A stretch of DNA of 64,000 nt. Source: Antedon mediterranea. Taxonomy: Eukaryota > Animalia > Echinodermata. Both the position numbers and the translations under genes were made by a program. The stretch is taken from the NCBI RefSeq assembly GCF_964355755.1, contig NC_092679.1, forward strand, positions 18,583,432 through 18,647,431, read 5' to 3'. The first letter of the stretch is position 1, and the number at the start of each line of letters is the position of its first letter. Positions 9,984-56,672 of the stretch are shown here, one piece after another. The notes under the pieces are model-generated. The model was given only the letters and a program-made list of their open reading frames with translations, ran no database searches and was not told the DNA's origin.

Positions 9984-12900
9984 TTATGTAAGATCCATGC
10001 CACCAATAGATTTCTTGATTCGAAGTAAAATTGTTGTTAGCCATTGGTCAAGTCTAGAGATTGAGTCGTATTCTTTCACCTGTCAATAAAAAATATATAA
10101 GATATATAATAGAAGATATAACAGATGATATTGAATAGATTGATAATGTGTTACCCAAAGTTGCTGTTGAAACTGAACACACACAAAACTGTTTTGGAAT
10201 TGAGTTGGTTTTTCGTTTATATACTGTATGTATATGACAGACAGAATTTTAACCTAGGACCCTGGGATGGGGAAGCCTAGCATCTTTTTTTGGGGGTCAT
10301 TCTCATTTTTTTTTGTAGAATTTGTCTCTACAAGATTAGGAGGTATACAACTTACAGCATCGGTATAGCCATCAACATCTTCCTCTTCTAGGGCTGCCAA
10401 CAATTTCTGAAATAAAAATTAATACAAAAAAATATTCTCTAACTATAAAAATACTGAATATAGAGAAATGAAATACTGGACAGGTACATCCAGTGGTGTG
10501 TTTACATTACTCTTTTTAGAACAACACTTTCAAGGTGTTTAAAGCTCTGTCTACACCATCAAACTTTATGTGACAAGAAAATGCCATATATGGACATGAT
10601 GATGTCATATCACTGCCATATTTAAGCCTATCACTACCATATTTGGGTACATCACACATTTTTTGTCACATAAAGTTTAATAGTGGAGACAGAGCTTGAG
10701 TGTTGATTTGACGAAGTATGGTACTCACATTAAGAAGTTTATATTCACGACTATCAGCAAAAGCAGGAAACATCTCTTCATACTTTTGTACAGCGTGCTT
10801 TGCGTTTAGCGTATCTATACACATGTTACACAAAGCGGCCTTAAAGAAGTAATCCTTAGCGCTGTACTTTAATAACGGGGTATTCAACGACACTTCCGCA
10901 ACCTCGTTATAGATGTCAACGGCCTTGCTGTAATTCTCTAGTTGAGCGCTGTACTGGGCAACTTTCAGGAGGCATTTATTAGCTGAACTGTGGGAAAAAA
11001 ATATATTATTATTTTTAATTCATTATTTAATTTCTTTATAAAGTCAAAAAGTGTAAATTAACCAATGTATTCGGTCATATGACAAAGTTTATCTAATGTC
11101 ACAAAAGAAAAACATACCTGGTAGAGTCCTCTCCCTTATAGTAATCTGCTGCCCTTTCGTAATACTCAATAGCTTTCTCAAGATCGATGGAGTTGCCTTC
11201 GTAGATCTCTGCCACAGATATAAGATGTTTAGCTGCGATTGCAAAACGCCCCATGTCTGTGAAGATTTCTATGGCTTGCTGCAAACATCTCACAGCCTCT
11301 ATAGAATACAAATATAAATGGAACATTTAGTTACCACAATCAGAATTAGAGATCTTCTAATTGCAGGACACCATACCAATGAGCAACAAAAACTGTGATG
11401 TGATAGCTATCGTAACTACACCAAATTCTGTATATATGACCATTGTACTGTGCAACATTCAAGTCTTGTATCCCTCAAAATAAATTGTCAAATTTGCGTA
11501 ACTTCATATTTATGTACACTAACTTGGTGTTGCATGATACAAACAAAACAAGACACAAAATATATTCAGTACATTAAAACACATACATTATATAGCTATC
11601 CAATCATCTGTGTATACATTGTAATGTGAATCAAGATTAGACAACCATTGCTTTTACCAGAACAGAGTAATTAAAATATTTAATGTGCTGAAATTATTAA
11701 AACAGCACACTGAATTATACATAATTTCAGATTTGTGTATTCTTGACAAAGAATATCAAATTAATGTTTACTATGTAGATATATAATATTTAAAAAAATA
11801 TCAATATTTTGGTAAAAATACTGCACATTTTTCTGGAAAATAAATGAATGCATTAATTATGCAAATCTTATTAAAAGATGTAGTCTGTTGAAGAGATTAT
11901 ACGCTCCAGTTACTAATGCGATTAGTTTTCTTAATTGAAAAATTAGTTACCGGATTAGTAATACAATAACCTATATATAAAGTAGACAAGCTTAGATAAT
12001 AATAATAATAATAATATACTGTGTAGTTTAGGCACATACATATGATACAGTAGAGAGAATTTTACCCAACCTCTTTGATGTCAAGTTGACCTAAACTTAC
12101 TACTGTAGTAACATTACATACATTACAGGTGTCTCTCTTAAAGATGTATTGTCCCTTGAAATACAAAAAAAATGAAGGTCAAAATATTCTAAATTTAAAG
12201 TGGCCATATCAAAGTAATATTAAAGTTATTCACTTTAAGTCGAAAATTCGAGCTAAAAACAACAAGTTTACGTAATTAACAGGTAAATTAGTTTGATTAC
12301 ATTTCATCTGGAAAAGATGTATTGTCCCTTGAAATACAAAAAAAATGAAGGTCAAAATATTCTAAATTTAAAGTGGCCATATCAAAGTAATATTAAAGTT
12401 ATTCACTTTAAGTCGAAAATTCGAGCTAAAAACAACAAGTTTACGTAATTAACAGGTAAATTAGTTTGATTACATTTCATCTGGAAAATCATCGCAAGCG
12501 AAAGTAAACAAAGATTTCAAACCATGAGTACGCATTATGCATACGTTAATTAGGATTGTTTACAACTTGTCACGGTTGAGAAGGTATTTTCACACGGATC
12601 ATAAGGAAGTTTTATTATTATGGATACAGAGTAGCCTAACAAGCGTGTTTCATTATGGGATATGTTTTTATCGAAAACTTTGACTGGAAGTCAAAGTTAT
12701 TTTTTTAACAAAAACAACGTCTGTATTTCAGTTAAATGATTTTTTTTTTCGAAAATTTTTTGGTGATAGTTAATAATTATTATGATACTTCAAAATGAGC
12801 CACCTTTTTTCAAAATCTTTTATTTTTTATTTTTTTGGAATTAGTCAAAGGGACAATACATCTTTTAACTTTTTAACTTTAACTTTTAACTAGAAGATCA

Positions 12901-15900
12901 GTAAAGTTATATTTTCAATAGTCCTCCACTCTGGTCACAGAGTATCAGCAAACTAAGGAGGCCTTCAATTAACTAAAAATAAGGTAAAGACAATCAACCT
13001 TGTTTCAATAGTCTAGGTGTAAATATCGTGAAGAGATAAATTATTGATATTTCGTCAGATTTTATTGAAATTGTAAAGGGGCAATCAGACTTGTTATCTG
13101 ACTATTTAACTGGTCCGCAACGCATTTAACTGGCCATTGGCCGGCGGATCAGTGTTATTGCAAACGCTGATGACATACATTTTCCTTAGTTTTTCCTAAT
13201 CCAACAGAATTCAAGAAAAAGTCTAACAACATTTACCGATATGTAACCACAGGTGACAAACTGAATTGTGACATGCTATAACACAGTGATATCGACAAGG
13301 ATTACACTATACACATTATCTACTAATATTATAGAACATTCTAGAATTCTTGTGAAAATATGCAAACAATCTTTCACAATTTATTCAAATCGTGAGATAA
13401 TAGACAATATTGAACTGTTATACAAAATGCAATGATTATACAAATGGAATGAATAAGATAGGTAAATAGGAACAATTTCATGTACATAACAATCATCTTT
13501 ATAATATAGTAGTATGTGGATAAGAATAAATTACATTTCTAAATGTATCTATATTATTATGTTTATTATACATTCAAGCACTTATTCATGATGTGGATTC
13601 AGCCTAACATGCAGATTATTATCATGCGTATATATATATTCATCTGAAATTTGGCAAAAATTAGAGGGGTGGGCTTATACTTGGATTGCCATTAACAATG
13701 TAATAATGTAGTGTTTTCCCAAAGCAAGTTTTGCCAGTAAGATTTTCTTGCCAAAATTGGCTCCAACCTGTCTATTAAAAAAAACTAGTAGTAAAACTAG
13801 CCATTAAAAACATAGACAAAGAGCAATTGAAGGCTTTATTTTGTCAATTCGATAGGCAAAATACAATATTTTTTGACTTTTTTGTATTTAGTAGATTAGT
13901 TACATCTTATACAGTACATAAATAATTTGTTACTTTACTTAATTTGTCTGAATTTGGAGAGTGGGATTTGTGATTATAGATAATATTTATTTATATATAT
14001 TTTGTGTGATGGGTGAATGATTAACATAATATTAAATTGTTTTATGTTTTCTATTTGTATTGAATATTAGATAATAAATTTCATATAAAAACGATGCAGA
14101 GAGTATAGAAAAACATGCAGTCATTCCAATCAAGTCATCACTAGGGAGCTCTCGATTTGTGGCAACCAACGACCTAACAAGGTCAGGTCAATTGATGTGT
14201 CATAGGACGTCGCCTGGACCTAGAAACCATTAAAATGATGTAGTTTGGTTGTCGGTCGTCACAAATCAAAAGCTCCCTATCAGGTACTCATATTCAAACA
14301 CTCTATTCATTGATGCGAAAAGGAACATGCACACCATACTATCAATACAATTTTCAGTTTATACTCAATTACTTATACTGTACAATGTTCAGTTTGACAC
14401 TTGTGAAACAAAACTATGTATAAACAGATTAAAAACCCGCCAGCCAAAAACAACAGCAAGTAATAGAGAATCCCATGAAAAAAGCTTGTAGTTTACAGAT
14501 CAACGAAAGAGTAGCATAGATGGAACACACGAACCTCCTGTTTACATGTGTGTACATGTGAAATAATTATATATAGAGGCAGTAGATAAAATTATATTTG
14601 ATTATTGTTATAAATTTTGTATGTATTGACAATGAAAATAACCAAGCCAATCAGATTTGCTATAATCACTGAGAAAAGTAGCAGGCTAATTTGTTACTGA
14701 GCATTGTAAGTAGCACAGTTAGTTAAAATAGTGTGCAAAGAGCGCAAGTAGGATACTTGTAGCTATTGTTGTGGCTGGCAGGTTACCTAACAAGCTGAGG
14801 CAAGGTGCAGAACAATTTCCCTTTCTGAACTGAGTGTGGATTGCAGCTGGGGGGGATACAAAATCATGGCCTTAAATTTTAAATTTTCTTTAAAAAAATT
14901 GTTCCTGTATAAAACAAATTACAGGGAGTTGGTTAAACTTCTGCTTTATTCATATATTGAATAACAAATCTTTGTTATATTATTTATTAGTTTAGTGTTT
15001 AGGCCATGTTGGGACAGACAAGCATTCAGACAAGGCACAAAGCATTCTGCAATCCACCTCTGGATATTGTATCTGATACCTTCGCCGTCAACTTTCTTGA
15101 AACAGGTTCCAGCGTCCACAAGTCTGTAGCCAGCACGATGTTTCTTTTTCATCTTTTTTTCTAACGAAGCAGATTTTTTAAATGCCATTCCTGCAGCTAG
15201 ATTTCAAGAGATAGAAAAAAATCATTAGATTTTTTAGAAAAATTAACAAAAACTTACCATCCCCATCTGTTTTCTTGAAGCAAGTGCCTGCATCAACACA
15301 AGCACTTGCCGCTTCATGCTTGTTCTGTAGCCGTAGATGTATTTTAGCCGATTCGTAAAATGCGTTTCCAGCAGCTTAAAGCATAAACAAATTATTAGGT
15401 AAAACAAACAAGTTGTAAGCTCTGTATACACTATCAATCTAGTTTGACAAAAAAGTGTGTGATGTGCCCAAATATGGTACAGTAGGGATATGACATCATC
15501 GTTTCCATATATGGGCACATCACATTTTTTTGTCACATAAAGTTTGATAGTGTAGACAGAGCATTAAAAAAAATGATCTAGTTATAAAGTATACCAAATA
15601 TAATGAATACAGTTAAATCTTAAGATTGATGTTTCTACTTGGACGAAACGTAAGGAGGTAAGACCACCGGAATTTGACCAATCACAATGCGATGGGTCAT
15701 CCAAACTGTCGTTTATAATTGGTCAATTCACTTGCATTGTGCCTACATTGTTGTGAAATTCACATTTATGTTTGTGGATTGCTTGGGTGTGATTACTTTT
15801 CAAAACTTGATACAAACGATCGCAAATGCTGGACTGGTTTAAAATATAGTGGACAAAAAACTAACTAACTAAGTATTACAAATTACACATTCATAATAAA

Positions 15901-18900
15901 TTATGTTAATCAAATTAATACATTCACCACTATAGTAAAAATGTTATACGATCAACTTGATATGGAAATATAGTAACACAAAAAAAGATAAAAATATTGA
16001 TTACAGTTCATGTCTCGGATTATATGGACAATTTCTTAAAGATATATTGTCCCCTAAAAAATATATATATTTTTTTCTAAAGTGACTTTATTAAAACTGC
16101 AAATGGCCTATTTAAAAGTCTGATTTGATAAATCTTTATTGTTCATGTTTTTGGGAGACAATATATCTTTAATATTTTAATATGGTTTAAATTTATCATC
16201 ATTTTCCTGAAATATTTTCTGTCCATTTATTTAATTTTACAATAAATATTTGGATAATAGATTTTTTTATTTTAGCCATATTTAATGAGGGTGATCCATC
16301 CAGCATTTGCTGATCATTTGGGACCCTCAGAACAGATACAATATACAAAATACAACAGAAAAGTAAAAAAAAGAAAAAAAGAAAAAAAAAGAAAAAAAGA
16401 AAATTAATTACATAAGACTAAAAATCTGAATAAGAAAATTTGAAATATAGAAAATAACTGAAATGTTAAATCAAGCAAAAATATATAATATTTATATAAT
16501 AAATATTTATACTATTTTACAATGAAAACATAGTCTAGTTACAAATGAAGGTAAAAATATGTGTATTTTAATCTAGGTTTAAACCGAATATTAAGTGAGT
16601 GAGTGGCCGAGCGGTTAAGACAGTGGAACCGTAATTACGTAGCCATAACATCGGCAGAGGTTCGAGGATCACTCACTCCATGGTTCTGGTGGTAGAACGT
16701 GTCTTCTCGGATAAGGACTACAAACCGTAGGTCCAGTGTACACAACTTGCTCGTGTGCACTTTAAAGAACCTAGTACATCTTTCGAGACGAGTAGGGGTT
16801 ACCCCTGTGTATTAGTACATCACAGCCACTGATCATAACTGGGCCCTCTGGGAGATCAGTCTTTGAATGAAGAGGTTACCCAGTATAAATATATTTCAAT
16901 CAAATTCAATCAATAGGCTCCATAGTGACATTTGATTTGTGTCAATAGGACTTTCAATTTCAATCCACATTATTTTGCATTTCAATACATATTATTTTTT
17001 ATTAAAATCTCCAAGATCAGGTTGCGATTTCAATCAACAATTTGGGGATTGAAATACAATTCATTCATGGTGGTGGGTTGCATTTTCCCTGCCTGAAGTT
17101 TATTTTATCACACCAGCTACATTTTTACAACTCCCACCACTTGTCTACGCTCCAAAATAATATTACATCTTTTGTTGTATAAATAAATACCTTACCAGAC
17201 CATGCTTTTGCCATTTTAAACGAATTTGCTGCTCGTTGGTAAGTTTCACTGGCTTCTTCTAGTTTTGATGTTGATCTAAAATTATCAAATTGTAAAACCA
17301 TTAAGTCGAAACATGGAGTAATCTTCACCAGTGGCGTATCCAGGATTTTGAAGTTGGGGGGGGGGCCGGGAATTGCCAATTTGCCGACAAAATTGGTGTC
17401 ATTATCTGCTGTACATACACGATGTCTCTGATCAATATATTTTCTAGGATTACATAGTCATATTGTCTTATATGGGATAACGATGCAAAATTAAAACCAA
17501 ACCAACATTATCTGTTAGTATGTTGTATTCATATTACAATAAAGAAAGAATTAGGAAAATCTGATTTGTAGTTTTCGAAATATAGGGTCTAAAACATCGC
17601 CGAAAATTATCGTTTTTAGCCACGAAAGAAGTAAAACAATTTGCGGCCTCAGTCGACAATTCTATTAACTACGCCATTTTTGGTTAAAATAATTACATAT
17701 AATTACGTTTTTTAGTAATTTATTTTATATATAACCATTGCAAATATCAATAAAACATGTTATTAAATGCTTATAAAATATATAAAGTTGTTTACTTAAC
17801 GGAATTCGGACAAATTCATTGCTCTAACTTTGTGTAGTAACGATCAGAGAGATTCATGGCGCGAGAGAAAACATTCCGCTGCGGGTGATTCGCATCCACC
17901 AATCAAATCAGCTAGAATCCTAAATCATTCAACCGTGAGCAATGCCAATCGCGAGAAAGCTCAGCTTTGATTGGCTTACGATGACATCATATCACAAAAT
18001 GGTGGTTTTGTAGTTGAGCCTCACGGAATATTCTGTTCCAAAAATGAAATAGGGCCTACATGGATATTTTTTATGGTATATGTGCTTTTTCTTTAAAAAT
18101 TTTGAATAATAAAGGCCTCATATCGAGAAAAAAAAACGGGTTTTTGGCACTTATAATAAATATATCTTAGACAAAAAAGCACATGGCATGTGGAACTATA
18201 TAATCTCTTAGCGTAGGAAGACATACAAATCCCAGGTCATGAGAGGCTCAACTGCATGCAAAAACAAGGTTTTAGGGTAAGGTCAAAGACTTTTGAGTAA
18301 ACAATCTACCGCGTACGGCCGTACGTACGTGCTACACATTTTTTACGTGTTTCGTTAGATGTAATGAAAATAAAAAATAGTTGATCTGAAGGGATCAATG
18401 ATGATATGATATGTAAATAAACAAACACTCAAAAGAATTATGTTTACAGTTCAATTATTGTCAGAATAAATAGTTTATTTTTTTTTCCCGGCACCTTTGT
18501 TTGCCGACGGCCGCGATGATGTGCCGACGAAAACGAAATCAGGGGGGGCCCGGGCCCCCCCGGCCCCCTACTGGATACGCCACTGATCTTCACTCCATGG
18601 TCGAATCAATATTATCATTAAATATTGTAGCAATAAATGCTGAAAGAGCAGGTTTTTTTTGCTTTTCTTTTGTTGGTTATAATACAAAACATTACTATTT
18701 TTTAACTTTGAATTTTATGTCTACAAACAGTACAGACACAGTATATTAATTGTTAAAATATTGAAGAAAAATCAATAAATATTTTTGAGAAGGAAAAGTC
18801 AATTATGAGCAAGGAAAGACACAGGGAAAGGAAATTGACATTAACAAAAGCGGAATTAATTATCCGACTGTGCCTGCCTGTACTGCATGTGGATGTGGCT

Positions 18901-19284
18901 AAAAATAATAATTAAATTATTCATTTAGGCTAGGCTAGCTAGGGCTAGGTTTAGCTTATTATTAATATTATAAATAAAATTCTTCACAATATTTAATCCT
19001 AGCCCTAGTCTAGTTAGGCCTAGAATATATAGAGTACGCCCAACGGTACTGTCTATCAATCATACAGTATAATATAGTCATTTAATAATTTACCATAGGC
19101 CGAGGCTAGGCCTACACCGTACGAATTATCAACACTCTGGCATGCAGCATATCACGCGATCTGAGCGATTAAATAAAAACAAAACATACCCTCCAAACAG
19201 GCCTCCGAAAAAAGTCTGCGACGACTTGACTTTCTTCTCAGCTTCAGCAATAAGCTCTTTTCCTTTCTGCTCTTGATCTGCCAT
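9984..19284 (-). CDS. NAPA: Alpha-soluble NSF attachment protein (alpha-SNAP), 292 aa when one exon-3 variant is used
   Basis: Exons (minus): 19284-19190 ([31 protein letters not shown]), 17275-17196, exon 3 (15374-15258 or 15196-15080), 11298-11118 ([25 protein letters not shown]), 10987-10729 ([16 protein letters not shown]...[13 protein letters not shown]), 10406-10356, 10079-9984 ([31 protein letters not shown]). All are GT-AG and frame-consistent. Confidence 0.95.
12142..12863. mobile_element. TTAA-type element (family 2, long form) with an internal tandem duplication of its first ~172 bp
   Basis: Same TIRs as family 2; near-identical to 35535-36080, which lacks the duplication. Confidence 0.85.
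14142..14279. mobile_element. Small MITE (TIR TAGGGAGCT.TCGATTTGTG)
   Basis: Inverted termini; related pieces near 35100-35122 and 35506-36205, the latter interrupted by a family 2 element. Confidence 0.6.
15080..15196 (-). CDS. NAPA: NAPA exon 3b (duplicated, lysine-rich variant, 117 nt, phase 1-1)
   Basis: atctag|CTGCAGGA...GGCGAAG|gtatca; open frame [39 protein letters not shown] aligns without gaps to exon 3a. Confidence 0.8.
15258..15374 (-). CDS. NAPA: NAPA exon 3a (canonical-looking variant, 117 nt, phase 1-1)
   Basis: tttaag|CTGCTGGA...GGGGATG|gtaagt; encodes [39 protein letters not shown], close to the familiar alpha-SNAP AGNAF...KHDAA...VDAGNAFKK segment. Confidence 0.9.
16595..16912 (+). 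mobile_element. tRNA-derived SINE with a Deu/Nin-domain-like core
   Basis: A box TGGCCGAGCGG and B box GGTTCGAG. The core GTCTTCTCGGATAAGGAC..AAACCGTAGGTCC..TTAAAGAACC..TTTCGAGACGAGTAGGGGTTACCCC resembles the AmnSINE1/DeuSINE central domain as I recall it. The tail has TCAA repeats. Confidence 0.7.
17329..18585. mobile_element. Non-autonomous hAT transposon, 8-bp TSD ATCTTCAC
   Basis: ATCTTCAC|CAGTGGCGTATCCAG...CTGGATACGCCACTG|ATCTTCAC in NAPA intron 1. Confidence 0.9.
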
Positions 19285-19620
19285 TTTAAACAGAGTTTTT
19301 ATAATCTAACTGCCAAAAATGCACTTATCAAAATCAATCATATACGCATAAAAATGAGAGGTTTTACACGTCAATATGTATTTACATTGACTGAATATCA
19401 CTCAGCCATTTTTATTTCAGCTCGAAATATTTCTGAGCATGCGTAAACTTTTACAGTGATGACGTTTGGCAAAATGATAAAGTGCGTTTCAATCGAACGC
19501 GTTCTGAATTCATTTATTTAACGGCAAATTTGAACACGTGACGCACTGGTGGTTCATGAACATTAACCGGGATTTTTCAAGTAAATTTCGCTATCCTATC
19601 TTCGCTTAAAATATGTAAGT
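19285..19620. promoter_or_regulatory. Probable bidirectional promoter / 5' region shared by NAPA (-) and CatSper1-like (+)
   Basis: Divergent ATGs are about 730 bp apart. A + strand donor GTAAGT near 19615 and an acceptor near 19966 suggest a non-coding first CatSper exon. The region is locally CpG-richer with YY1-like (AAAATGGC, minus), GCATGCG, TGACGT and CACGTGAC motifs. Confidence 0.5.
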
Positions 19621-20012
19621 ATAGACCAAGTATTTTCAATAAAATTAATTTACTATAGGCCTATATGATAAACTCGAAATCATAGCCTATACCTATGAAA
19701 TAAATTCACAATGTTATTTTTGTTCTTCATGTCCCAACAAGAGTGTTTCTGAGATTGAAAATAAATTGACCAATGAATTAATACAATAAACGAATGATGA
19801 ACAAATCAAAGTAAGTAGCAACATTTGATAAGCTTGGCAGGGAAACATTTTATTTTATTTAAGTCCATGGAGCAGCATGCCTGTAAAGGAATTCCATCTA
19901 CTGGAGTCGGTGCCATAGAGTGAAGTATAGGCATAGACAACTCAATAATCAATTAATTCTTTCTAGGTTATAGGCTAGACCTAGCAACATAGAACCTACA
20001 AAGTTAGACGTG

Positions 20013-23000
20013 ATGAAGCCCTCTAGTTCAAACAACTTGGTTCCTTCTACTGGAAAATCTTCCAACCCGTCTCTTCACAAGCAACATCTCAAAGCTCCGC
20101 ACATCGATCCCCCGAGCCAATACAACATCCAGTTGAGCCACCGTAAAGAATCCATCATCCCAAGTAACAATGTCTTCGAAACAGTCAAGATAAACGACAA
20201 AGAAGAGCTGGAAATGATGGAGAAAGAGATGAGAAAGAGGAAGCTGCTTCAGAATGCTTCTCCGTTTCACAAGATGATGTACGAGTTTACGGAGTCGATG
20301 CTTTTTAACGGTTTCATCATGGTTGTCATATTAATGAATACTGCGATACTCTGTGCTCTGACGTATGAGATAGTAGCCGTACGACTTGGTAGGACTTCAT
20401 TCAAATGATGGAAGAGTGTGTGTTTGGTGAGATAGCGGTTGGACCATGGCTTCATGGTTAATAATGGTGGACCAAACGAAAAAAAAACAACAAAAAAACA
20501 ACTTTGAAACGTTTTTGATTCAGTATAATATAGTAAAAATAATAATACAGTAAAACTCCTCCTTTGAGACTCGCCTATCAAAAATAAATGTTGGCTTCGG
20601 CGCCGTTCAACATCTTTAAAGCTCTGCCTACACTATCAAACTCTTGTGACGAAAAATGTGATGTGCCTATGGACATGATGATTTGGGCGGCACATTGCAC
20701 TTTTTTGTCAATCTAGTTTTATAATGTAGACAAAGCTTAAGTGGGTTGTCTTCACTTTCTTGATGAAAGACTCGGTAGAGAGTGAATGAATGTTTTAGCA
20801 AATTTGTTTAACAATGTTATATTTCTTAGGCTGGTACATGACGTTCGTGGATTACATATTTTTGGTCATCTACTTTCTAGAATGTGTCGTCAAACTTTAT
20901 GTCTGGCGTTTGGGCTATTTCAAGGAAGCATGGAACATAGTGGGTAGGACTATTTTGTAATAATAATTAAAAAATAAATCATCAGCAACACCAGTATATA
21001 GACACAAAATAAAATAGCACAGAACGTAAATTATGGAATACGTGCTGGGCAAAAAAAGAAGCTCTGTATACACTATCAAACTAGTTTAGTATAGTTATAT
21101 GCTTAAAAGGCCCATTTACACTAGGACGATAACGATCGAAGATAAATAGATAAATAGGCCTATGCATTTTCATACATAACACAACATAAATATAAACACT
21201 TTTCATTCCAGAACCATCTATGCTCCTTTTGATGAAAATGATATTTTCACACGTCTAATCAAATGACGTCATGATTAGTAAGAGCAATAATATCGTGACA
21301 ATACAACGATTTTATTGTTTTTATTTATCATGACATCATTTGATCAAAGACAGCATAAATGATTATCCTATAGTTCTAGAACGAAAACCTTTCTAATTTC
21401 TTTTGTTTTATGTAATGAAAATGCTTATATATTTATCGTCGATCGTTATCGTCCTAGTGGAAATGGGCCTTAAATATGTCCATATTGTCACATGAAATTT
21501 GATAGCTTAAGACCTACTACGCAGTTTTTGACATAAGCTGTCAAAGTATACTGAGGCTGAGTGGCTATTTTCCAAAATGATGAATATTTAAGAATTAATA
21601 ATAATTAATATCATGTAACTAAATCATTTGTTACTATTTATTTTTAGATTTTCTAATAGTACTGTGTAACATAGCCGATCTCTTAGTGCCAGTCATAATG
21701 GGTAACGAAGTGAACATACTGCAATTTCTAAGCATACTCCGTTCAATGAGAGCTTTGAGGGCCTTACGAGTGCTTCGTACAGTGAGGTGAGAACAAACAA
21801 GGCCAACAGCCATTAAGTCGCGTGCTACAATGCATAGTGATACCGGACCGACAGACAAACAGACCGACAGACAGACAGACAGACCGACAGACAGACGGAC
21901 CGACCGACATAGTGAACTATACTGACCGAAATTACTGAACATGTTTAAAAATGTTGAAATGTTTAAAAACATTTATATTTTTTTAATTTACACGTGCGTA
22001 GCCTGTCACTTTTGACGTGCTCGTATAACGGAATTTCGAGTTGAAAAGTAAGTCAAGAAAACAGAAATCGGGCAAGAAGAGTGCGCAATAACATTTAACG
22101 CGCAGTGCGCGCGCAAAAATCTGCGCACTCATGGCAATTTTGTAAACGCTTAAAATTGCCTGAAACGTACTCTTATTTCATCGGAAATAAATTTTGAAAA
22201 TTTTAAGCGCGCTTACGCATGCGTTACATGCGCTACGCACGTAATTGTATTGCCATTATGATGATTTATGCCCTGAAATTTATGAGTACCAAATTTTATT
22301 TAATTGTGATTCATGGTTGTTAAGATATGATTACAAACGTGATTTCGTTAAATCGTGCGTAGACCGCGTAATTTTTTATTGCGCACCGTGAAAACATAAC
22401 CACATCGATTCCTGGCCATAAGGAATATTCTGTGAAAAATTGACTTAGCTAGATTAAACTGATATCAAGATAAGGTCATAAAGCGATAAAACGCATAGTG
22501 ATACCGGACCGACAGACCGACAGACAGACCGACAGACAGACCGACAGACAGACCGACAGACAGACAGACAGACAGACCGACCGACCGACATAGTGAACTA
22601 TAGAGTCGCTTCCACGCGACTAAAAAACGGCATCACCAAATGTATTTATATTCTTTGCATTCATTTTTAAATAATTGAAAAAAGTAATAGTCTAGTATCT
22701 TTTGCAGGTTTCTAAACAGTCTACAAGTTATCATGAATACATGCCTTCAATCGATGCAATCTATGGGTGCTATCGTGTCACTAATCTTTCTCTTTCTATG
22801 TATCCTTTGAAAAAGAAGTGTTATTAGGCCCTTGTGTTGCAATATTATTAATGGTAACTTCCTCTCCACTTGATGCTCCTCTCCAGATGATGCTCAAGTT
22901 GGTTCTCTAATTGGTGCGACCTTTTCGCTACCGTTTACTCTAATTGGTGCGCTACCTTTATTGCTACTTTTTTTCCTCTAATTGGTGCGCTACCTTATCG

Positions 23001-26000
23001 CTATACTTTTTGCCCTAATTTGGTGCGCTACATTTTTTATCTAATGGTGCGCTACTTTTTGCTTTAATTGGTGCGCTACCTTATCGCTATACTTTTTGCC
23101 CTAATTGGTGCGCTACCTTATCGCTATACTTTTTGCTCTAATTGGTGGGCTACATTTATTGCTACTTTTTGCTGTAATTGGTGAGCTACCTTTTTGATCT
23201 AATGGTGCGCTACTTTTTGCTTTAATTGGTGCGCTACCTTATCGCTATACTTTTTGCCCTAATTGGTGCGCTACCTTATCGCTATACTTTTTGCTCTAAT
23301 TGGTGCGCTACCTTTATTGCTACTTTTTGCTGTAATTGGTGAGCTACCGTTTTGATCTAATGGTGCGCTACTTTTTGCTTTAATTGGTGCGCTACCTTAT
23401 CGCTATACTTTTTGCCCTAATTGGTGCGCTACCTTATCGCTATACTTTTTGCTCTAATCGGTGCGCTACCTTTATTGCTACTTGTTGCTGTAATTGGTGA
23501 GCTACCTTTTTGATCTAATGGTGCGCTACTTTTTGCCCTAATTGGTGCGCTACCTTATCGCTATACTTTTTGCTCTAATTGGTGCGCTACCTTTATTGCT
23601 ACTTTTTGCTGTAATTGGTGCGCTACCTTTTTGATCTAATGGTGCGCTACTTTTTGCTGTAATTGGTGCACTACCTTATCGCTATACATTTTGCTCTAAT
23701 TAGTGCGGTACCTTCGCTACTTTTTGCTCAAATCGGTGCGCTACTTTTTGCTTTAATTGGTGTGCTACCATTTCGCTACTTTTTGCTTTAATTTGTGCGC
23801 TACCGTACTTTTTGCTATAGTTGGTGCGCATCCTTTTTGATACTTTCTGCTCTAATTAGTGCGCTACCTTTTGCTCTAATTGGTGAGCTATTTTTATCTA
23901 CTTATTGGTGTTCTACTGTATGCTCCAGTCATTTACCGTCTTTTCTCAGATACAAATTAGTAAATATAAGTGTCATGTCATCATCACATAGATACAGATA
24001 CAGATACAGTATTTGCGTTTGACTCAGAAATATAAACACTAATTATTAATTGCATTACAATAATATATGAATATTGTTGACCTTTATAATGACGTAGACA
24101 TGTTTGCAGTAATTGGGCGTGGTCTGTATTCAGAGGTAGATCCTGATAGGTTTGGCAATTTGACGTCAGCAATGTTTACAATGTTTCAACTTCTTACTCT
24201 AGATGATTGGTTCTATATTTACACTGATGCTGTTAAAAGAGACCCGGGTATGACATACTGGGAGGGGTTGAGAGGAGGGGGGGGGGGAGGGGTACGCACT
24301 GTCCTGATTCACATGTTTTTGTGGTCCTTCATACGCGTTACGCGCGTATGTGTTAAAAGCGGTAAACAGATTTAAAACGGGTTTACACCAGCAATGCCCA
24401 CCCAAGGTACTCGTCATCTTCTTCATCATCATCATCAAATAAAAAATATTCCTTTATTTTAAACAGGATCTTTTCATATAATATTCTACCTCATGATGTA
24501 CATAGCGACTGAATATTTCATATTCCTAAAGTAAGTACCAAAACGAAACAAAGTTGTCATGCTTTACGACGATATGTCTTGGATCATGAATCCAGTGATA
24601 CCGTAACAAATTCAATTTTACAATTTGATTATTTGAATAGTTTGTTCGTTGCTGTGTTAGTGGACAACTTTCAACTGACGCTAGAGGCAGCAGCGGAAGC
24701 TGACGCAGAGAGAAAAGCTGCGCTGGTAAGTCTCCATTTTTTTTAAAAAGAATTTAGAACATACGCATTCAATTCCAAAGTAACTGACATGAAAACCTCA
24801 TTAAGGCTTGTCTACACTATCAAACTTTATGTGACAAAAAAATGTGATGTGCCCATATATGGATGATGTCATATCACTACCATATTTGGGCATATTACTA
24901 CCATAATATGTGAGCACATCACACTTTTTTTGTCAAACTAGTTTGATAGTGTAGACAGAGCCTTAGTTCAAGCTACATCTTGTAGTATTTTTGGTTGAAT
25001 GACGTTATAAAGATAACAGTCAAGACCAGTAACCGTTACAAAAAGAAGCCAATTTTCTTCTAGAAAGCTGAAGAGGAGGAGCAAAACGAAAAACATGCAA
25101 GCATGATAGAACGCCAAAAGATGAGTGAAAGTAAGCATACCTCAACACCTATACCTGTATACAACAGGCCTAATGACAAATAGAAGTGCTCAGTTGCAAT
25201 GATCACATACCATAGGCATATTATTATATGACATATCTTCTCTAATTCTGGTAAATTAAGGTCTTCCAGTAGATGCGATTTAAAAGAACCATTCTCATTA
25301 CTCGACACATTTTAGAAAATTCTTCACATCCCGGTTATGCAAATTAAACTCCACCATACCAGGTTAATTATTTAAATTTCTACAAGGTATTCAAAATTCA
25401 TTACCCAACATTCCTTTTTTCCCTACTAAAGCTTGAATTCCATTGGACGCAACGCAATGACGTAAGCACGCCGCCAGTGATCTGACCAATCACGACGCGA
25501 TGGATATTCAACTGTCGCTTGTGATTAACCAAGCGTCGAGAGCATTGACATTGTTTACTTTTATTATATCCCATAGATTTGAGTTTAGCCTCATCTGTAG
25601 AGGTTCCACACATCAAGAGAACTATTGATGATTATTACGACGAACATAAATACAACTCGGGGTAGGTTTATTATCATGTAAAATAATAATATAAAATATT
25701 TTGATTCATAAATCGCGCATAATTGCTATACTATAAATGCGCCATGAAAGATGTGCCTTAATGGTTTTATCAGATAACAAAATGGATTAAAAATACTTTA
25801 CAGTTATACTGTAATCCGGAACTCATGTTTTTTTGGCTCCAACTTAACATTTATGAGCCGTCATTTTTGCCGTCATAAATTCACAGACAAATAACAAATT
25901 TCCAGTTAACCCGTCATAGAGTTGTTCATAATATAGTGTATTGGTCAACACATAAACCACGTTATTTTATACGGTTTATGGTAATATGCCCACATATGGT

Positions 26001-44469: not shown

Positions 44470-46140
44470 TTTTACTAGCAGTTTTTATACTAACATTATT
44501 ACTTTCAATTTTAAAGTCATTTGGGTAAAGAGAGAAAAGAACAGGAGAAAGAACACATCCCTGATGGACACCCGTGTTAGTGAAAAGAGTACTAACTAGA
44601 AGAATGTCCACCTATCCTAACCACCTGTGGTCTGTTTGATAGAAAATCACCAATCCACAAGATTATGTGTGAATTAATATTCATATCACAGAGTTTCCGG
44701 AGCAGAATATGTGATTGGATAGTATTAAAGGCTGAAGAGAAATCGAAGAACATAGAGCGAACATATGATCGCGGTCTCTCGAGACCAGAAAAAACAGACT
44801 CAAAAAAAGTTAAGACTGCATCACTAACCCCTTTCTTACTCTTATATGCAAACTGACACGGATCACGTAACTCATTACAGTACATTCATTTAGCAGAAAA
44901 TGCTTAACAATGGATTATAGACACTTCATAATGATCGATGTCAAGGCAACGGGTCTAGAGTCGTTGTTAGTACTTGGTTTAGGTTTTTTAGGGAGTGGTG
45001 TTATTGAGGACTTTTTCCATATCACAGGTATACAGTAGTATGCGAATGATGTGACCAATTAAATAATTTATGAAAGACATAACTTATTTCATTCGAACAT
45101 CTTTTGATAAGCTTCGCAGAGATACCATCAGGTCCTGTAGCTTTTCCAGATTTAACATTCTTAAAACAATTCCTAATTGTATTAATGTCTAATTCTAAAT
45201 CACACATATGTAAATTATTTTTAATTTCTTGAATCACGTTATCTTTGTCATCAATAAAACGAGTCAAAACGAGTATAAAAAGTGTTCAAGTCATTTAAGT
45301 CCAAATTCGAGTCCAACTTATTTTCTTTCTTTCCGATTCCTGTTATAGATTTCAAGCCTTTCCATGTTGATTTAGTATTTTTTCTGTTTAAAACTTTTCT
45401 TTCCATACTTTTCTTTCACTTCCTTTATTTTTTTCCTTATCAACAGTTTTATTTCAGTAAGACGCGCCAAGTCATTGTTTTTAAAGGTTTCCTGTTTACT
45501 AATTATACGTTCACGTAGTTCTTTTATCCACGGCTTGTTGTTTGCATAAACTTTAAATTTCACATCTGATATAATGCTGTTCTCACAGAACTTAATATAT
45601 TCCGTTACGCATTCTGTAGCATTATCTATTGAAGACGCATTATCTAGAAAAATATCCCAATTAGTATTATCAAAGCAGTCCTTCAATTCTTCCTCATTTT
45701 CTTTGCTCCATTTCTTAACAGATTTAACCACAGGTTTTTCGCGCTTAACCTTCTGTATATATTTAGGTAAAAGATGCACCATATTGTGATCAGACAATCT
45801 AATTGCCGGGTTATTCTCAGCTTTGTACGTGTTCTTAATCTTACTGTAACAGAGGTCGATGGTTTTCTCCCTTCTAGTTGGAATATTTAGGCCTACATGT
45901 TGATATAAGTTAAGTAGGACATGATTCAACTTACACTTGTTAAAGTCACCAAGAATAATAGATACCGCTTCAAGAGATTTATTTTGAAGATAATGATAAA
46001 TCTCGGAAATTTTAGATAGCACTTGCTATATTAACATCAGCTCCAGGGTGGACATATACCATGGTAATGAATATCTGATTCTCTTGGTAGATAGAAAGGA
46101 CGCGACCGGAACGCTAGTAACTCCACACGACCATAATTAT
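44470..46140 (-). mobile_element. Decayed Rex1/Babar-like LINE (endonuclease end plus RT)
   Basis: RPFYLPRE, ILGDFN, SDHNMVHLLPKY, KDCFDNTNWDIF, NNKPWI, KATGPDGI and YVRSMFFDFSSAFNTI across broken frames. Confidence 0.85.
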
Positions 46141-46329
46141 GTAACTACTGGAATAGATTGGCGGTAGTCCAGGCTAGGTACAATAACATCAATTTCATCG
46201 AAAACGAACAATATAACAGCAAAACAACACAACCACATATTTCTATAAAATATCATAACGGTTGGATGACAACAATAAATACAAAAAAAACTTCACCTCT
46301 GCTTCTAAAACAGTAAAAATTTCAAAAAC

Positions 46330-46758
46330 TCAACACTGGATAAGGCACAGAATAGGCCTGCACTGACATCCGACATTTCTATTTACATCTTCATCCATCT
46401 CGGATTGAGTACTAGCCTCCTTTTCCAGACCAATTGTTGGGGATTCCGTTACCACCATTGTATTATCAACGCCATCATCTGACGTCATGACATTATTTTG
46501 TTGATGGTCATTTAATTGGTGAGGAGCAACCAGTTGATATTCATTGCAAACATCATTCCCATTTCTTTCAAGAGACTTAGATTCAGAACTGGTAGGCTCA
46601 AACCTAATGCATTTTGAAAGTGAAACCACCTCAAACATACATTTCTCCTGACCAGCCACTTTCACCAGTCTTTGGTTGTTTCCACATTTTATTCGACGTT
46701 TACCATTTACGCCAAATATTTCCAGAACAACGATCAACGTTAACACACCAAAATACAT
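46330..46758 (-). pseudogene. Type B family copy truncated after the first linker repeat, adjacent to a LINE
   Basis: Signal peptide, KCGNNQRLVKVAGQEKCM and a TSDD linker are present. Homology stops at about 46385 and Rex1-like LINE sequence follows downstream on the same strand. Confidence 0.7.
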
Positions 46759-47499
46759 AATCTATTAAACAAGAGAATACTGAATGTGAAAATCAGTAGC
46801 TAATTGTATTAAACAAGACTGAACATATTACATTTACGTAAAATATTCCAAGAACCAACATCAACGTTAAAATACTGAAATACATAATCTAATAAACAAA
46901 AGAAAAAATACTATACGAGGTCTTTTCCCGTGAAATTTGAACTTGGAAATAAACTTGTAAATTAATGATAAATGAACCAAATGTTGCATTGACAAAATGT
47001 ATATAAAAAAAGAAATCATCTAAGATTTAATATAGAAATATACGAGTTTTAAAACAATTCATATTTGAAAGGATACCCATGGAAGTATCTAAATATTAGG
47101 AAAAGAAATGAAGAGAAACTAACTTACAAAATGTGTACTTTGATACCACTCAGCACGCATTAAATTCTGCTCAATCTTTAATATTTATCACTTTTAGGCA
47201 ATAACTCGTTCTGTTGTCTCGAAGTATACACTGTGTGCATTTTAAACATGACAAACACACAAAAAGATGTTCAACCACTATTGTGCCAAAATAAAGCTTT
47301 TTAATTGGTTACACAGACAATGACAATGAAACTCTATCTTATTTTATTTCCAGGTAAACTTAACGAGTGTCAAATTATGTGATACCAATAAATTATTAGC
47401 ATTAGCAAGTTTAATTCAATTAATTAAAAGCTACGGTACCTTAGCAATATACATCAACTCACTTCATTTAACTCAATCAATTCCACAATGTCCAAAACT

Positions 47500-48395
47500 A
47501 TGTATGTACTAGGACCATTATTATTGTTTATTGATATCAACGACATACCTAACACATCCAAACTTTTACATTGTATTTTATTTGCCGATGACACAAATAT
47601 ATTTTACTCACATAAAAATAAAAAGACATTATTTACAATTATTAATGTTGAATTTATTAAAGTTGCAAACGTGTTTAAATTAAACGAGCTTTCCCTTAAT
47701 ATTAAAAAAAACAATTATCTTCTGTTTAATTATAAAGTTAAAGCTTCTATTAATGATCATATTTTTATTGATAATTTTAAAATGTTAACGAATTTAAATT
47801 CCTTGGTAGAAAAACTAACATGGAAACCTCACCTTCATATAATTAGTAATATAATTTCGCGAAATATTGACATTATGAATAAACTCAAATACATACTTCC
47901 GAGTCCCTCTAATATAGACTCATAACCCTATATAATAGGCCTACCTTAGTTCTATCGTATATTTCATATTGCAATTTAATTTGGGCCGTAACTATTATGC
48001 CCTTTGACAAGCCTTGAATCATCAAGAGAGACTTGAGAATTTGTGATGGTTTATCATTTCAATCTCACACCAAACCTTTATTCCTTAAGTTCAATGTTTT
48101 GAACATCTACGATATTAATAAACCCCAAACGGTTCTGTACATGTATCGTATTCACAATTTAATTATTCCACCTAATATTTCTTCATTATTTGTCAAATCA
48201 TCTGACAAGCATGCATTTAATACTAGACATGCAGATAATTATGTAACCGAAGCTTTTACAACAAACATTAGACGTAATTCTGTTTTATATATTGGTCCGA
48301 ACTTTGTAAATCTCTAGATTGAATTAAAAAACAAACCATCCATTGCTAATTTTTAATATAAACTCAAGAAATCTCTGGTCTGTACAATAAAAAAT
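47500..48395 (+). mobile_element. Decayed LINE RT 3' fragment (L2/CR1 group)
   Basis: VLGPLLLFIDINDIP...LFADDTNIF, HTKPLF, HAFNTR; frameshifted, with an A-rich end. Confidence 0.8.
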
Positions 48396-49803: not shown

Positions 49804-49915
49804 GAATTGTAACAAAGGATAACATATAAGTCACAAAATTACATAATAAAACAAATCAACCAATCAAAAATGTTAACAAACAAAAGGCATAGTTATAAAG
49901 GCACGCCTCCAAAAG

Positions 49916-50500
49916 CTAGGTTTTAGTAAAGGGTTTTACTTCAGTGCATTCATAAAAGAAATGGACATCATCCTCTACTACGTTGCATTGTAGGCAAGTA
50001 TCTGTGTTGCTTATTTTCCATTTTAACAGCCTTCTTTTGGTAGGTGTTATACAATGCAATAGTTTGATGTTCAACTGTTTAAGTTTATTATCTTTAATAT
50101 CTTTAATTTTTCTTTTCCATGTTAGAGACCAATCGTTCTCCATGTTAAAATATGTTTCCCATTTTGTTTTACTTTTGGATGGTTCTAGACATTTTTCCTT
50201 AATAAAAAAAAGAACATATTTGTTTGCTACTCATATTCAAACATCGAACGTGTGTTGTTTTTGAGTGCTTTTGGTTTTTATTCCTTAAAAAGATTTTCTC
50301 TTTCCATTCTTTTGGAATTGCGTTTAATACAATTTGCCATTCAGCAATCCAGTTTGATTTATACCTAAGCATATCAAGTAATTCATTTGCGTTAATGAAC
50401 CTATTCTCAATTACAATATCCTTAATATTTCGCACACCTGACCTTATCCAGTTTCTAAAATAATGACATGTCCTTGTATAAAATCATTTTGTTATACCAG
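49916..50500 (-). mobile_element. L1/Tx1-like LINE ORF2 C-terminal fragment with Cys/His motif
   Basis: KLKQLNIKLLHCITPT..LLKWKISNTDTCLQCNVVEDDVHFFYEC (zf-RVT-like). Confidence 0.75.
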
Positions 50501-55532: not shown

Positions 55533-56164
55533 ACTCTAATGAAACAAAGAATAAATGCCGCATATACGTGGTAGTTTTCAGTGAATATGAATTTTGTAAA
55601 AAAATAAACTTGTAAATTAATAATAAATGAACAAAACTAAGTTCTGCATTGACAAAATGTATATAAAAAAAAAATAAATCAACGAAGATTTACATATACA
55701 AATATACGAGTTTTAAAATAATTAATAGTTGAGAGGCTATCCACATTGAAATGTCTAAATATAAACAAAAGTAATGAATGACTGTGCGTTTAAACCAAGG
55801 ACTAACTAGAAAATCTAACAAATGCTTTATAAATATTAGCGATTTATGAAGTTCAGATAAACAGATAAGTTACCAAATTTATGAAAATATGATAACTTGT
55901 CGAGGCCTACAGTACTTTAAATTAAACCTTAACCAACGTTGTCAATAGGTAAACTAACAAGTACATGTCTGTTTTACTTTGTTGAAAGAATTATGGAACT
56001 AACTTACAAATGTGTAGTTTGATACCAAACCGACGCATTACATGAGCACTACTGGATACTCTATCTTTAGTATTGATCACTTTCGTAGGTAATAACTTGT
56101 TTTGTTTCCTCAATGAGTATACTGATATACTGTACGTTTACATGACAAAATGACAAACACACTT

Positions 56165-56672
56165 TAAGTTGTGCTTATGTGATATTGAAAAACAAAAATG
56201 CATTCAAAAATTTAGTTCACATAATAAGTTAAGGCTCTTTTCTCTTTATAAAAAAGAAATATGTTTAAGTTATCACTTGACCAACATCATTAATTTTAAA
56301 CAAAGAAGATTATTAACTAAGTTACGTTTAGGGATATTAGAGCTAGAAATTGAAAAGGGCAGATGGGAGGGTGTAGAAAGGTATAAGAGAACGTGTAAAT
56401 TATGTAAAAAGAACATTATTGAGTATGAATATCATTTTATTTTGCAATGCACATTTTATAATGATTTAAGAAAAAGTTTTATTCCAAGATTTATTCGTGT
56501 TTTTACTTCTATTAATAAGCTATGTTTATTACTTTCCAACACAAATTTTACTTATAATTTAGGAAAATACGTCTACTTTGCTTTTGAAAGAAGAAATCAT
56601 TATCTTAAGTTATAGTTATTTTTTATTTGTTTGTATTAGGGCCAAAGGCCAATATACATTGAACTAATAAAT
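56165..56672 (+). mobile_element. LINE 3' fragment with CCHC-like motif (RTE-X-like)
   Basis: RRLLTKLRLGILELEIEKGRW..RTCKLC..EYEYHFILQC..YNDLR followed by AATAAA. It interrupts the conserved upstream module at CAAACACAC (compare 63701). Confidence 0.7.

What the first reader, a model, noticed from the sequence alone, without database searches (positions are those of the whole stretch)
15080..15374. Duplicated, probably mutually exclusive exon 3 in alpha-SNAP encoding a charge-switched isoform
Seen: two homologous 117-nt phase 1-1 exons, each with AG/GT sites and an open frame, separated by only 61 nt. Exon 3a encodes [39 protein letters not shown]; exon 3b encodes [39 protein letters not shown]. 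The shared residues are kept despite many silent differences, which argues for selection on both. A CTAAT branch-like motif lies only about 30 nt from the 3a donor. Established: a short donor-to-branch distance can sterically enforce mutually exclusive splicing (alpha-tropomyosin exons 2/3), and alpha-SNAP binds the acidic SNARE bundle through basic surfaces. Inference: one gene yields a housekeeping SNAP and a much more basic SNAP with altered SNARE or membrane affinity. I know of no such exon pair in vertebrate NAPA.
Basis: partly seen in the sequence, partly recalled or inferred. Interest (0 to 1): 0.85.

Follow-up and report, generated by a model that had tools for sequence, protein, structure and literature searches.

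The report
Charge-flipped alternative exon in crinoid alpha-SNAP
Feather stars carry two copies of one exon of alpha-SNAP, a core vesicle-fusion recycling protein; both are kept in two species and are likely used one at a time, and the second copy swaps a conserved acidic SNARE-facing residue for a basic one, which would give a differently tuned form of a normally uniform protein.

Summary
Two homologous 117-nt exons (3a, 3b) lie 61 nt apart. Either gives a 292-aa alpha-SNAP, identical to the RefSeq isoforms X1 and X2 of Antedon mediterranea. Anneissia japonica has the same pair (3b 32/39 identical, 3a 33/39), so 3b is old and constrained. An RNA-type run gives a contig spliced 2-3a-4 that skips 3b. 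I did not see the 3b junctions directly; a second contig starts at the 3b acceptor and reads through its donor. No 3a+3b model is among the crinoid records. Steric exclusion by the short intron is likely but untested.

Exon 3 holds none of the main basic SNARE contacts. [quoted passage not shown] Both 3b copies have Arg there (0 of 147 near homologue rows do) and a net +7 segment. The likely effect is a weaker grip on the SNARE C-terminus and more pull toward anionic membrane, not tighter SNARE binding. The pair is machine-annotated, but my searches found no paper on it. It is a new variant of a known kind of splicing.

The parts
19190..19284 (-). alpha-SNAP exon 1 (coding part; holds the apolar membrane loop, F25/F26 = mammalian F27/F28)
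17196..17275 (-). exon 2 (holds E38/E39/E42 = mammalian E39/E40/E43 of the acidic patch)
   Evidence: joined to 3a in the RNA contig
15258..15374 (-). exon 3a, ancestral type, residues 59-97, net charge 0; RefSeq X1 isoform
   Evidence: spliced 2-3a-4 in contig 2
15197..15257 (-). 61-nt intervening intron; branch-like CTAAT adenine at +33 from the 3a donor
15080..15196 (-). exon 3b, derived basic copy (net +7, Arg at the D80 position); RefSeq X2 isoform; weakest donor of the gene (5/9 to consensus)
14922..15079 (-). read-through beyond the 3b donor seen in one RNA-type contig; frame open for 44 more codons; contig ends 23 nt after an AATAAA (possible intronic polyadenylation or unspliced RNA)
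11118..11298 (-). exon 4 (R115, K121 = mammalian R116, K122)
   Evidence: joined to 3a
10729..10987 (-). exon 5
10356..10406 (-). exon 6
9984..10079 (-). exon 7 (coding part to the stop)

Best explanation
[quoted passage not shown] SHOWN: the duplication; a 2-3a-4 transcript that skips 3b; 3b conserved in a second species; net +7 charge; Arg at the D80 position; unchanged core SNARE and membrane-loop residues. INFERRED: (1) full-length 2-3b-4 mRNA exists, as a minor form (from RefSeq models, the weak donor and the contig end at the acceptor). (2) Double inclusion is blocked sterically, because the 61-nt intron puts the branch point 33 nt from the 3a donor; NMD cannot police it, since all combinations stay in frame. 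(3) After the duplication 3b changed quickly at surface positions of helices 57-73 and 77-92 and was then constrained. (4) D80R breaks or reverses the acidic contact with SNARE layers near the membrane, and the Lys run at 72-77 would sit near the bilayer, so 3b would be a lipid-dependent, slower or more selective adaptor for NSF disassembly in some cell type.
For: The window's 3a and 3b proteins equal Antedon mediterranea RefSeq X1 and X2 at 292/292. Anneissia japonica X1 and X2 differ from each other only in this exon. Between the species 3b differs at 7/39 and 3a at 6/39 residues (Fisher p=1.0), while the whole protein is as diverged (269/292) as Strongylocentrotus and Diadema. Fifteen positions are 3b-specific and shared by both species; 6 of them (K65, E71, K72, R79, Y82, R83) occur in 0 of 69 other rows. 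The 3b pair is a clade (100/100) on a stem of 1.22 changes per column, with tips of 0.05 and 0.14 (only 39 columns). 3a against 3b: pS 0.76 (saturated), pN 0.12 at the ends and 0.53 in the middle. RNA-type run X1: a 1685-nt contig covers 3a, with loose ends matching exon 2 and exon 4. No 331-aa form is among the 4 crinoid records. A donor-to-branch distance under 50 nt is the published steric criterion (PMC5740500 passages; PMC7969005 passages). Position 79 = mammalian D80, part of the EEED mutant aimed at the SNARE C-terminal positive patch (PMC6130971 passage; the same geometry in yeast, PMC8143792 passages). It is D/E/Q in 147 of 147 near rows and R in 2 of 128 distant rows. The alignment-based model has pLDDT 95-98 over residues 51-100 and TM about 0.88-0.90 to 20S alpha-SNAP chains.
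Against: No 2-3b or 3b-4 junction was seen. The only contig on 3b runs through its donor into the intron, and I did not see the evidence behind the RefSeq X2 models. Only one RNA-type run was available, as contigs, and the three other runs laid nothing. The 50-nt threshold is mammalian: 61 nt is the usual minimal intron in Drosophila, and the sea-urchin minimum was unknown (PMC2721852 passage). Neutralising the acidic patch has only a mild effect in mammals and does not stop fusion in yeast, so D80R may matter little. 3b diverges faster than the rest of the protein (7/39 against 17/253, p=0.027), and Anneissia 3b has Pro for a His invariant in 69/69 other rows. The membrane proximity of the Lys run is inferred from sequence position and repeat register; I had no coordinates. 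The confident fold is driven by an alignment of ordinary SNAPs; the single-sequence model was low-confidence at 50-93, with no 3a control.
Confidence: 0.55

Rival explanations
1. The splicing is as described, but 3b is there for a job outside SNARE recycling. Its basic surface would bind another partner, or the K-K-x-K run would act as a nuclear import signal.
For: Most of the shared changes (65-75) lie on helix 57-73, which is not in register with the K122/K163/K203 row. A K-K-M-K run is kept in both species. The acidic patch matters only mildly.
Against: No partner or localisation data. The run lies at a helix end in the model. R79, Y82 and R83 sit on the helix in register with the SNARE-contact row. 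The import-signal consensus is recalled, not tested.
Confidence: 0.15
2. 3b is mainly a non-productive or terminal exon. The transcript reads through its weak donor and is cut at an intronic poly(A) site, giving a protein of about 141 aa without the SNARE core and NSF end, or RNA that is degraded, which lowers alpha-SNAP output.
For: The X1 contig on 3b runs 158 nt past the donor and ends 23 nt after an AATAAA. The donor is the weakest of the gene. The frame stays open for 44 codons, as only 187 of 7384 intronic positions do (2.5%), and the first 80 nt are 45% GC against 31% for the introns.
Against: Both species have full-length 292-aa X2 models. A decoy would not need to keep the buried small residues and the C-terminal half of the exon. 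X1 holds 0.34 of the words of a mostly intronic 7.4-kb stretch, so unspliced RNA, repeats or DNA are common in it. No poly(A) tail was seen in the loose end.
Confidence: 0.12
3. One reading: the basic 3b isoform binds the acidic SNARE bundle more tightly and is a stronger adaptor.
For: Net charge goes from about -9.5 to -2.5. Charge drives 20S assembly, and K122E/K163E abolishes disassembly. K76 and R79 are in register with R116/L197 and Y200.
Against: The SNARE surface facing this part of SNAP is basic. K76 is not shared with Anneissia.
Confidence: 0.1
4. 3b is a duplicate under relaxed selection, included at low level, with no function of its own.
For: Long stem, faster rate than the rest of the protein, loss of an invariant His in Anneissia, weak donor.
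Against: Open frame, exact length and 32/39 identity between two families, the same as for 3a; the derived basic residues are among those kept; silent sites between the copies are saturated.
Confidence: 0.08

Closest known systems
Tandem exon duplication-derived substitutions / homologous mutually exclusive exons (PMC8373072 abstract, section 16 and supplement; PMC5740500 passages and supplements)
   Same: Adjacent homologous exons of equal length and phase, each coding the same part of a fold, annotated as alternatives and conserved across species.
   Different: NAPA, NAPB and NAPG have 0 hits in the held supplements of both human catalogues, where SNAP25 is found. The middle of 3b is far more altered than a conservative swap.
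SNAP-25 exons 5a/5b (rows seen)
   Same: A duplicated 39-residue exon in the SNARE fusion machinery.
   Different: SNAP-25 is a SNARE and unrelated to alpha-SNAP. Its exons are 118 nt, so double inclusion shifts the frame; here 117 nt keeps it.
Sterically enforced exon pairs: OGDH 4a/4b (PMC7969005 passages), C. elegans bet-2, gly-5, gly-6 (PMC4165533 passages), alpha-tropomyosin 2/3 (seen only as a cited title)
   Same: Donor-to-branch distance under 50 nt; in the worm cases the exons are of 3n length, as here.
   Different: OGDH uses distant branch points in a longer intron, whereas here the intron itself is short, as in the worm cases. The crinoid threshold is unknown.
Metazoan alpha/beta-SNAP (Pfam PF14938; 20S structures 6IP1, 3J96, 9OJZ)
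   Same: Pfam SNAP E 1e-110, about 65-70% identity, same predicted fold, F27/F28, E39/E40/E43, R116, K122, K163, L197/L198, Y200 and K203 all kept.
   Different: Isoform 3b has Arg at D80 and net +7 in residues 59-97, against -3 to +2 in 147 near rows and at most +6 in 128 distant rows.

Membership tests
Homologous mutually exclusive exon pair | Adjacent exons with similar sequence, same length and frame | tested here: met
Homologous mutually exclusive exon pair | Junction that bridges 3b (3a-4) | tested here: met
   contig 2 of X1, loose ends match exon 2 and exon 4
Homologous mutually exclusive exon pair | Junction that bridges 3a (2-3b), and 3b-4 | tested here: inconclusive
   Not seen in one run's contigs; the 3b contig starts at the acceptor G and reads through the donor. 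RefSeq X2 models in two species imply them.
Homologous mutually exclusive exon pair | No 3a-3b joining reads | tested here: inconclusive
   No joint listed, but contigs drop rare forms. No 331-aa record among the 4 crinoid records.
Homologous mutually exclusive exon pair | Both exons conserved across species | tested here: met
   Antedon and Anneissia, protein level only
Sterically enforced pair | Predicted branch point under 50 nt from the upstream donor | tested here: met
   All three branch-like motifs lie at +15, +33 and +36 of the 61-nt intron
Sterically enforced pair | Branch point mapped, and intron below the species' splicing minimum | not testable with these tools
   No genome held; the shortest other intron of the gene is 130 nt; the echinoderm minimum was unknown in PMC2721852
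alpha-SNAP (PF14938) | Family profile over the full length and helical-hairpin fold | tested here: met
   (model guided by ordinary SNAPs)
alpha-SNAP (PF14938) | Core SNARE-contact and membrane-loop residues | tested here: met
alpha-SNAP (PF14938) | Complete acidic EEED patch (isoform 3b) | tested here: not met
   D80 position is Arg in both 3b isoforms; E39/E40/E43 are kept. This is a functional feature, not what defines the family.
alpha-SNAP (PF14938) | Supports NSF-driven SNARE disassembly (isoform 3b) | not testable with these tools
   needs a biochemical assay

The most novel reading that the evidence does not exclude
Crinoids use a splice switch to make a second kind of alpha-SNAP whose membrane-proximal face is charge-reversed. 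It binds anionic membranes but repels the zippered SNARE C-terminus, so it acts as a cell-type-specific brake or a selective adaptor on fusion (for example in neurons or gametes) and can mix with the ordinary form in one 20S ring. The brachiopod Lingula may have reached a similar solution independently through another exon, which would make SNARE-interface isoforms of alpha-SNAP a recurring invertebrate device.
Probability: 0.2. Interest if true: 0.75.

Novelty: new variant of a known kind. Interest (0 to 1): 0.47.

Why it matters
Alpha-SNAP is the general adaptor for SNARE recycling, and its exon-3 segment is very uniform: the D80 position is D, E or Q in 147 of 147 near rows. A natural, conserved charge reversal there, switchable by splicing inside one gene, is a ready-made test of what the membrane-proximal acidic patch does. 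Laboratory neutralisation of that patch gave only mild effects. The case also shows specialisation by exon duplication where vertebrates used gene duplication (alpha and beta SNAP; recalled). Limits: it is seen only in feather stars, the splicing type is well known, and both isoforms already sit in RefSeq as automatic models.

Tried and rejected
No genome is held for this window, so I could not measure intron sizes genome-wide or compute dN/dS for 3b between species; no Anneissia DNA was available.
Run search: no holder is on record as RNA; X1 behaved as RNA, since it holds a spliced contig. X2, X3 and X5 laid nothing on 14930-15415, which is no evidence. Only that 486-nt stretch was laid, so exon 2 and exon 4 junctions show only as loose ends. 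Uncovered bins (the 61-nt intron) prove nothing.
RNA-pairing (docking/selector) control: the inverted repeats in 11100-17400 (69 pairs, the 25 longest shown) are transposon-like or AT-rich. One MFE fold had no shuffle control. No support, but not excluded without a second genome.
Purine-rich enhancer as the cause of the Lys run: purine fraction 0.62 against 0.59, no support.
A decayed third copy in the read-through stretch: no hit.
Teleost alpha-SNAP insertions at the exon 2/3 boundary: read by eye as intron-like, not exon-3 copies.
The single-sequence fold was uninformative. No complex prediction was run, as no crinoid SNARE was on hand.
No scan of metagenome contigs took place.
Earlier scan findings: three look-ups, all empty.
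Literature: 0 papers for alpha-SNAP + mutually exclusive exons; 3 listings for NAPA + alternative splicing, none on this by title or abstract start; 15 of 25 listings, none on this. No divergence date for the two crinoids was found. Zhao 2015 was not read, so the EEED facts are second-hand. The list of 12 contact residues in PMC6457932 is in a figure I could not see.

Full report
OBSERVATION. The region is the third exon position of a minus-strand alpha-SNAP gene: e1 19284-19190, e2 17275-17196, 3a 15374-15258, 3b 15196-15080, e4 11298-11118, e5 10987-10729, e6 10406-10356, e7 10079-9984. Both third exons are 117 nt, AG/GT-flanked, phase 1-1 and open. They share 68/117 nt and 20/38 residues, with 12 of the 20 shared codons silently different. 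The match is far beyond chance (107 against a next best of 19 among 127,772 positions). Silent sites are saturated (pS 0.76), while pN is 0.12 at the ends and 0.53 in the middle. The intron is 61 nt, with the CTAAT adenine at +33. No third copy exists in the gene.

IDENTITY AND CONSERVATION. A search with the 3b peptide found one protein among 18 candidates: Anneissia japonica alpha-SNAP isoform X2. Its cluster holds Antedon mediterranea X1 and X2, which equal the window's 3a and 3b proteins at all 292 positions. Anneissia X1 is the 3a form. So both isoforms are already automatic RefSeq models in two crinoids. Between the species 3b differs at 7/39, 3a at 6/39 and the rest at 17/253 residues. 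3b is not faster than 3a (p=1.0) but is faster than the rest (p=0.027). The whole protein is as diverged as in two sea urchins, Strongylocentrotus and Diadema (269/292 in both pairs). An unselected copy would be unlikely to keep frame, length and 82% identity (inference). The two 3b peptides form a clade on a long stem with short tips (100/100; 1.22 against 0.05 and 0.14; 22 rows, 39 columns): a burst of change, then constraint. Records of other echinoderms, hemichordates and amphioxus carry no isoform label, except Acanthaster, whose X2 has the same exon 3. Their genomes were not searched, so unannotated copies are not excluded. Human catalogues of duplicated or exclusive exons give 0 hits for NAPA, NAPB and NAPG in the held supplements, where SNAP25 is found (long files may be cut).

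SPLICING. Five runs hold the stretch; none is on record as RNA. Four were laid on 14930-15415, and only X1 gave contigs. One (1685 nt, depth 99.7) covers exactly 3a, and its loose ends match the end of exon 2 and the start of exon 4 (read). So 2-3a-4 mRNA exists and skips 3b. The other (276 nt, depth 16.6) begins at 15197, the last base of the 3b acceptor, covers 3b, and runs 158 nt past its donor. Starting exactly there is what an assembly graph gives where spliced and unspliced upstream paths meet (inference; one study, a weak hint). The read-through ends 23 nt after an AATAAA and keeps the frame for 44 codons. It may be unspliced RNA or an intronic poly(A) product; this is the main result against a clean exclusive pair. 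The 3b donor is the weakest of the gene. I recall that NCBI builds alternative models from aligned transcript evidence, but I did not see that evidence. Double inclusion (331 aa) and double skipping (253 aa) keep the frame, so NMD cannot enforce exclusivity, and no 331-aa form is among the four crinoid records. A donor-to-branch distance under 50 nt is the published steric criterion (PMC5740500, passages; PMC7969005, passages), and worm pairs of 3n length are often enforced by very short introns (PMC4165533, passages). But 61 nt is a normal minimal intron in Drosophila, and the echinoderm minimum was unknown (PMC2721852, passages). Steric control is therefore likely, not shown.

PROTEIN. Both isoforms are full SNAP-family members. 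With a 73-row alignment, 3b folds at pLDDT 95-98 over residues 51-100, with helices 57-73 and 77-92, and matches 20S alpha-SNAP chains at TM about 0.88-0.90. This shows compatibility only; alone, the sequence gave low confidence there. Small or apolar positions (A60, G61, A63, F64, A68, L70, A80, A87, G88) are kept. Fifteen positions are 3b-specific and shared by both species, six with residues absent from 69 other rows. Net charge of residues 59-97 is +7, against -3 to +2 in 147 near rows (redundant, mostly animal, both 3b rows left out) and -5 to +6 in 128 rows from the best 150 of 3949 distant representatives (rows that do not cover the segment were dropped).

MECHANISM. The known basic and apolar SNARE contacts R116, K122, K163, L197, L198 and Y200 (PMC6457932, first part of Results), K203 (recalled), and the F27/F28 membrane loop (PMC6757032, passages) lie outside exon 3 and are unchanged. 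Position 79 is mammalian D80, one of four acids (E39, E40, E43, D80) mutated to break the contact with the positive patch near the SNARE C-terminus, with a milder effect than K122E/K163E (PMC6130971, passage). Yeast Sec17 has acids facing basic SNARE layers +3 to +8, and neutralising them still allows fusion (PMC8143792, passages). Both 3b copies have Arg there; 0 of 147 near rows and 2 of 128 distant rows do. By repeat register, positions 79 and 82 align with Y200 and with K122/K163/K203, so R79, Y82 and R83 likely face the SNARE bundle. The Lys run at 72-77 is in the N-terminal third, the end of SNAP that is near the bilayer, and may add attraction to anionic lipids; I had no coordinates to check this. 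Rivals are a non-SNARE role, a terminal or decoy exon, tighter SNARE binding, and drift.

NOVELTY. Homologous exclusive exons are a known, rare and usually functional class (PMC8373072, abstract and section 16). Three searches found no paper on such a pair in alpha-SNAP (open-licence library only). The isoforms are in RefSeq but, as far as these searches go, undescribed. Verdict: a real, conserved new variant of a known kind. Splicing as alternatives about 0.8; the specific functional model about 0.55 overall; interest 0.47.

Noticed in passing
proteins P0104 and P0125 (Lingula anatina RefSeq alpha-SNAP isoforms): Two 293-aa isoforms differ at 24 positions confined to residues 187-243, including Tyr to His and Lys to Thr at the Y200 and K203 equivalents. 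This looks like an independent duplicated alternative exon that alters the SNARE-contact row; its DNA was not seen.
   Followed up: partly
window 14922-15079 (-): The sequence past the 3b donor is GC-rich for 80 nt, keeps the frame for 44 codons and has two AATAAA; one RNA-type contig covers it.
   Followed up: partly
window about 19600-25100 (+): A multi-exon ion-channel-like gene lies head-to-head with alpha-SNAP, a few hundred bases from its start codon; one exon has a weak Ion_trans hit (E 0.001, below cut-off). A CatSper-like reading is a recalled impression, untested.
   Followed up: partly
window 27800-63100 (-): A tandem array of about ten related long ORFs, intact and broken, with apolar N-termini and a Laminin_G_3 domain (2 of 2 tested hit), interleaved with retroelement-like fragments near 44600-48300, 49900-50500 and 56150-56600.
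   Followed up: partly
window 15295: Run X1 differs by one base in exon 3a, at the third position of a Val codon; silent (read).
   Followed up: yes
protein P0077 (Loxostege, 353 aa); P0166, P0288: P0077 repeats an exon-5-like segment. P0166 and P0288 lack exactly the exon-3 segment, which suggests that the same exon boundaries hold in other animals.
   Followed up: no
window 15417-15565, 22900-23900 and many other places: A short inverted-repeat element recurs throughout the window, one copy about 40 nt upstream of the 3a acceptor; a tandem array of a short unit lies at 22900-23900.
   Followed up: no
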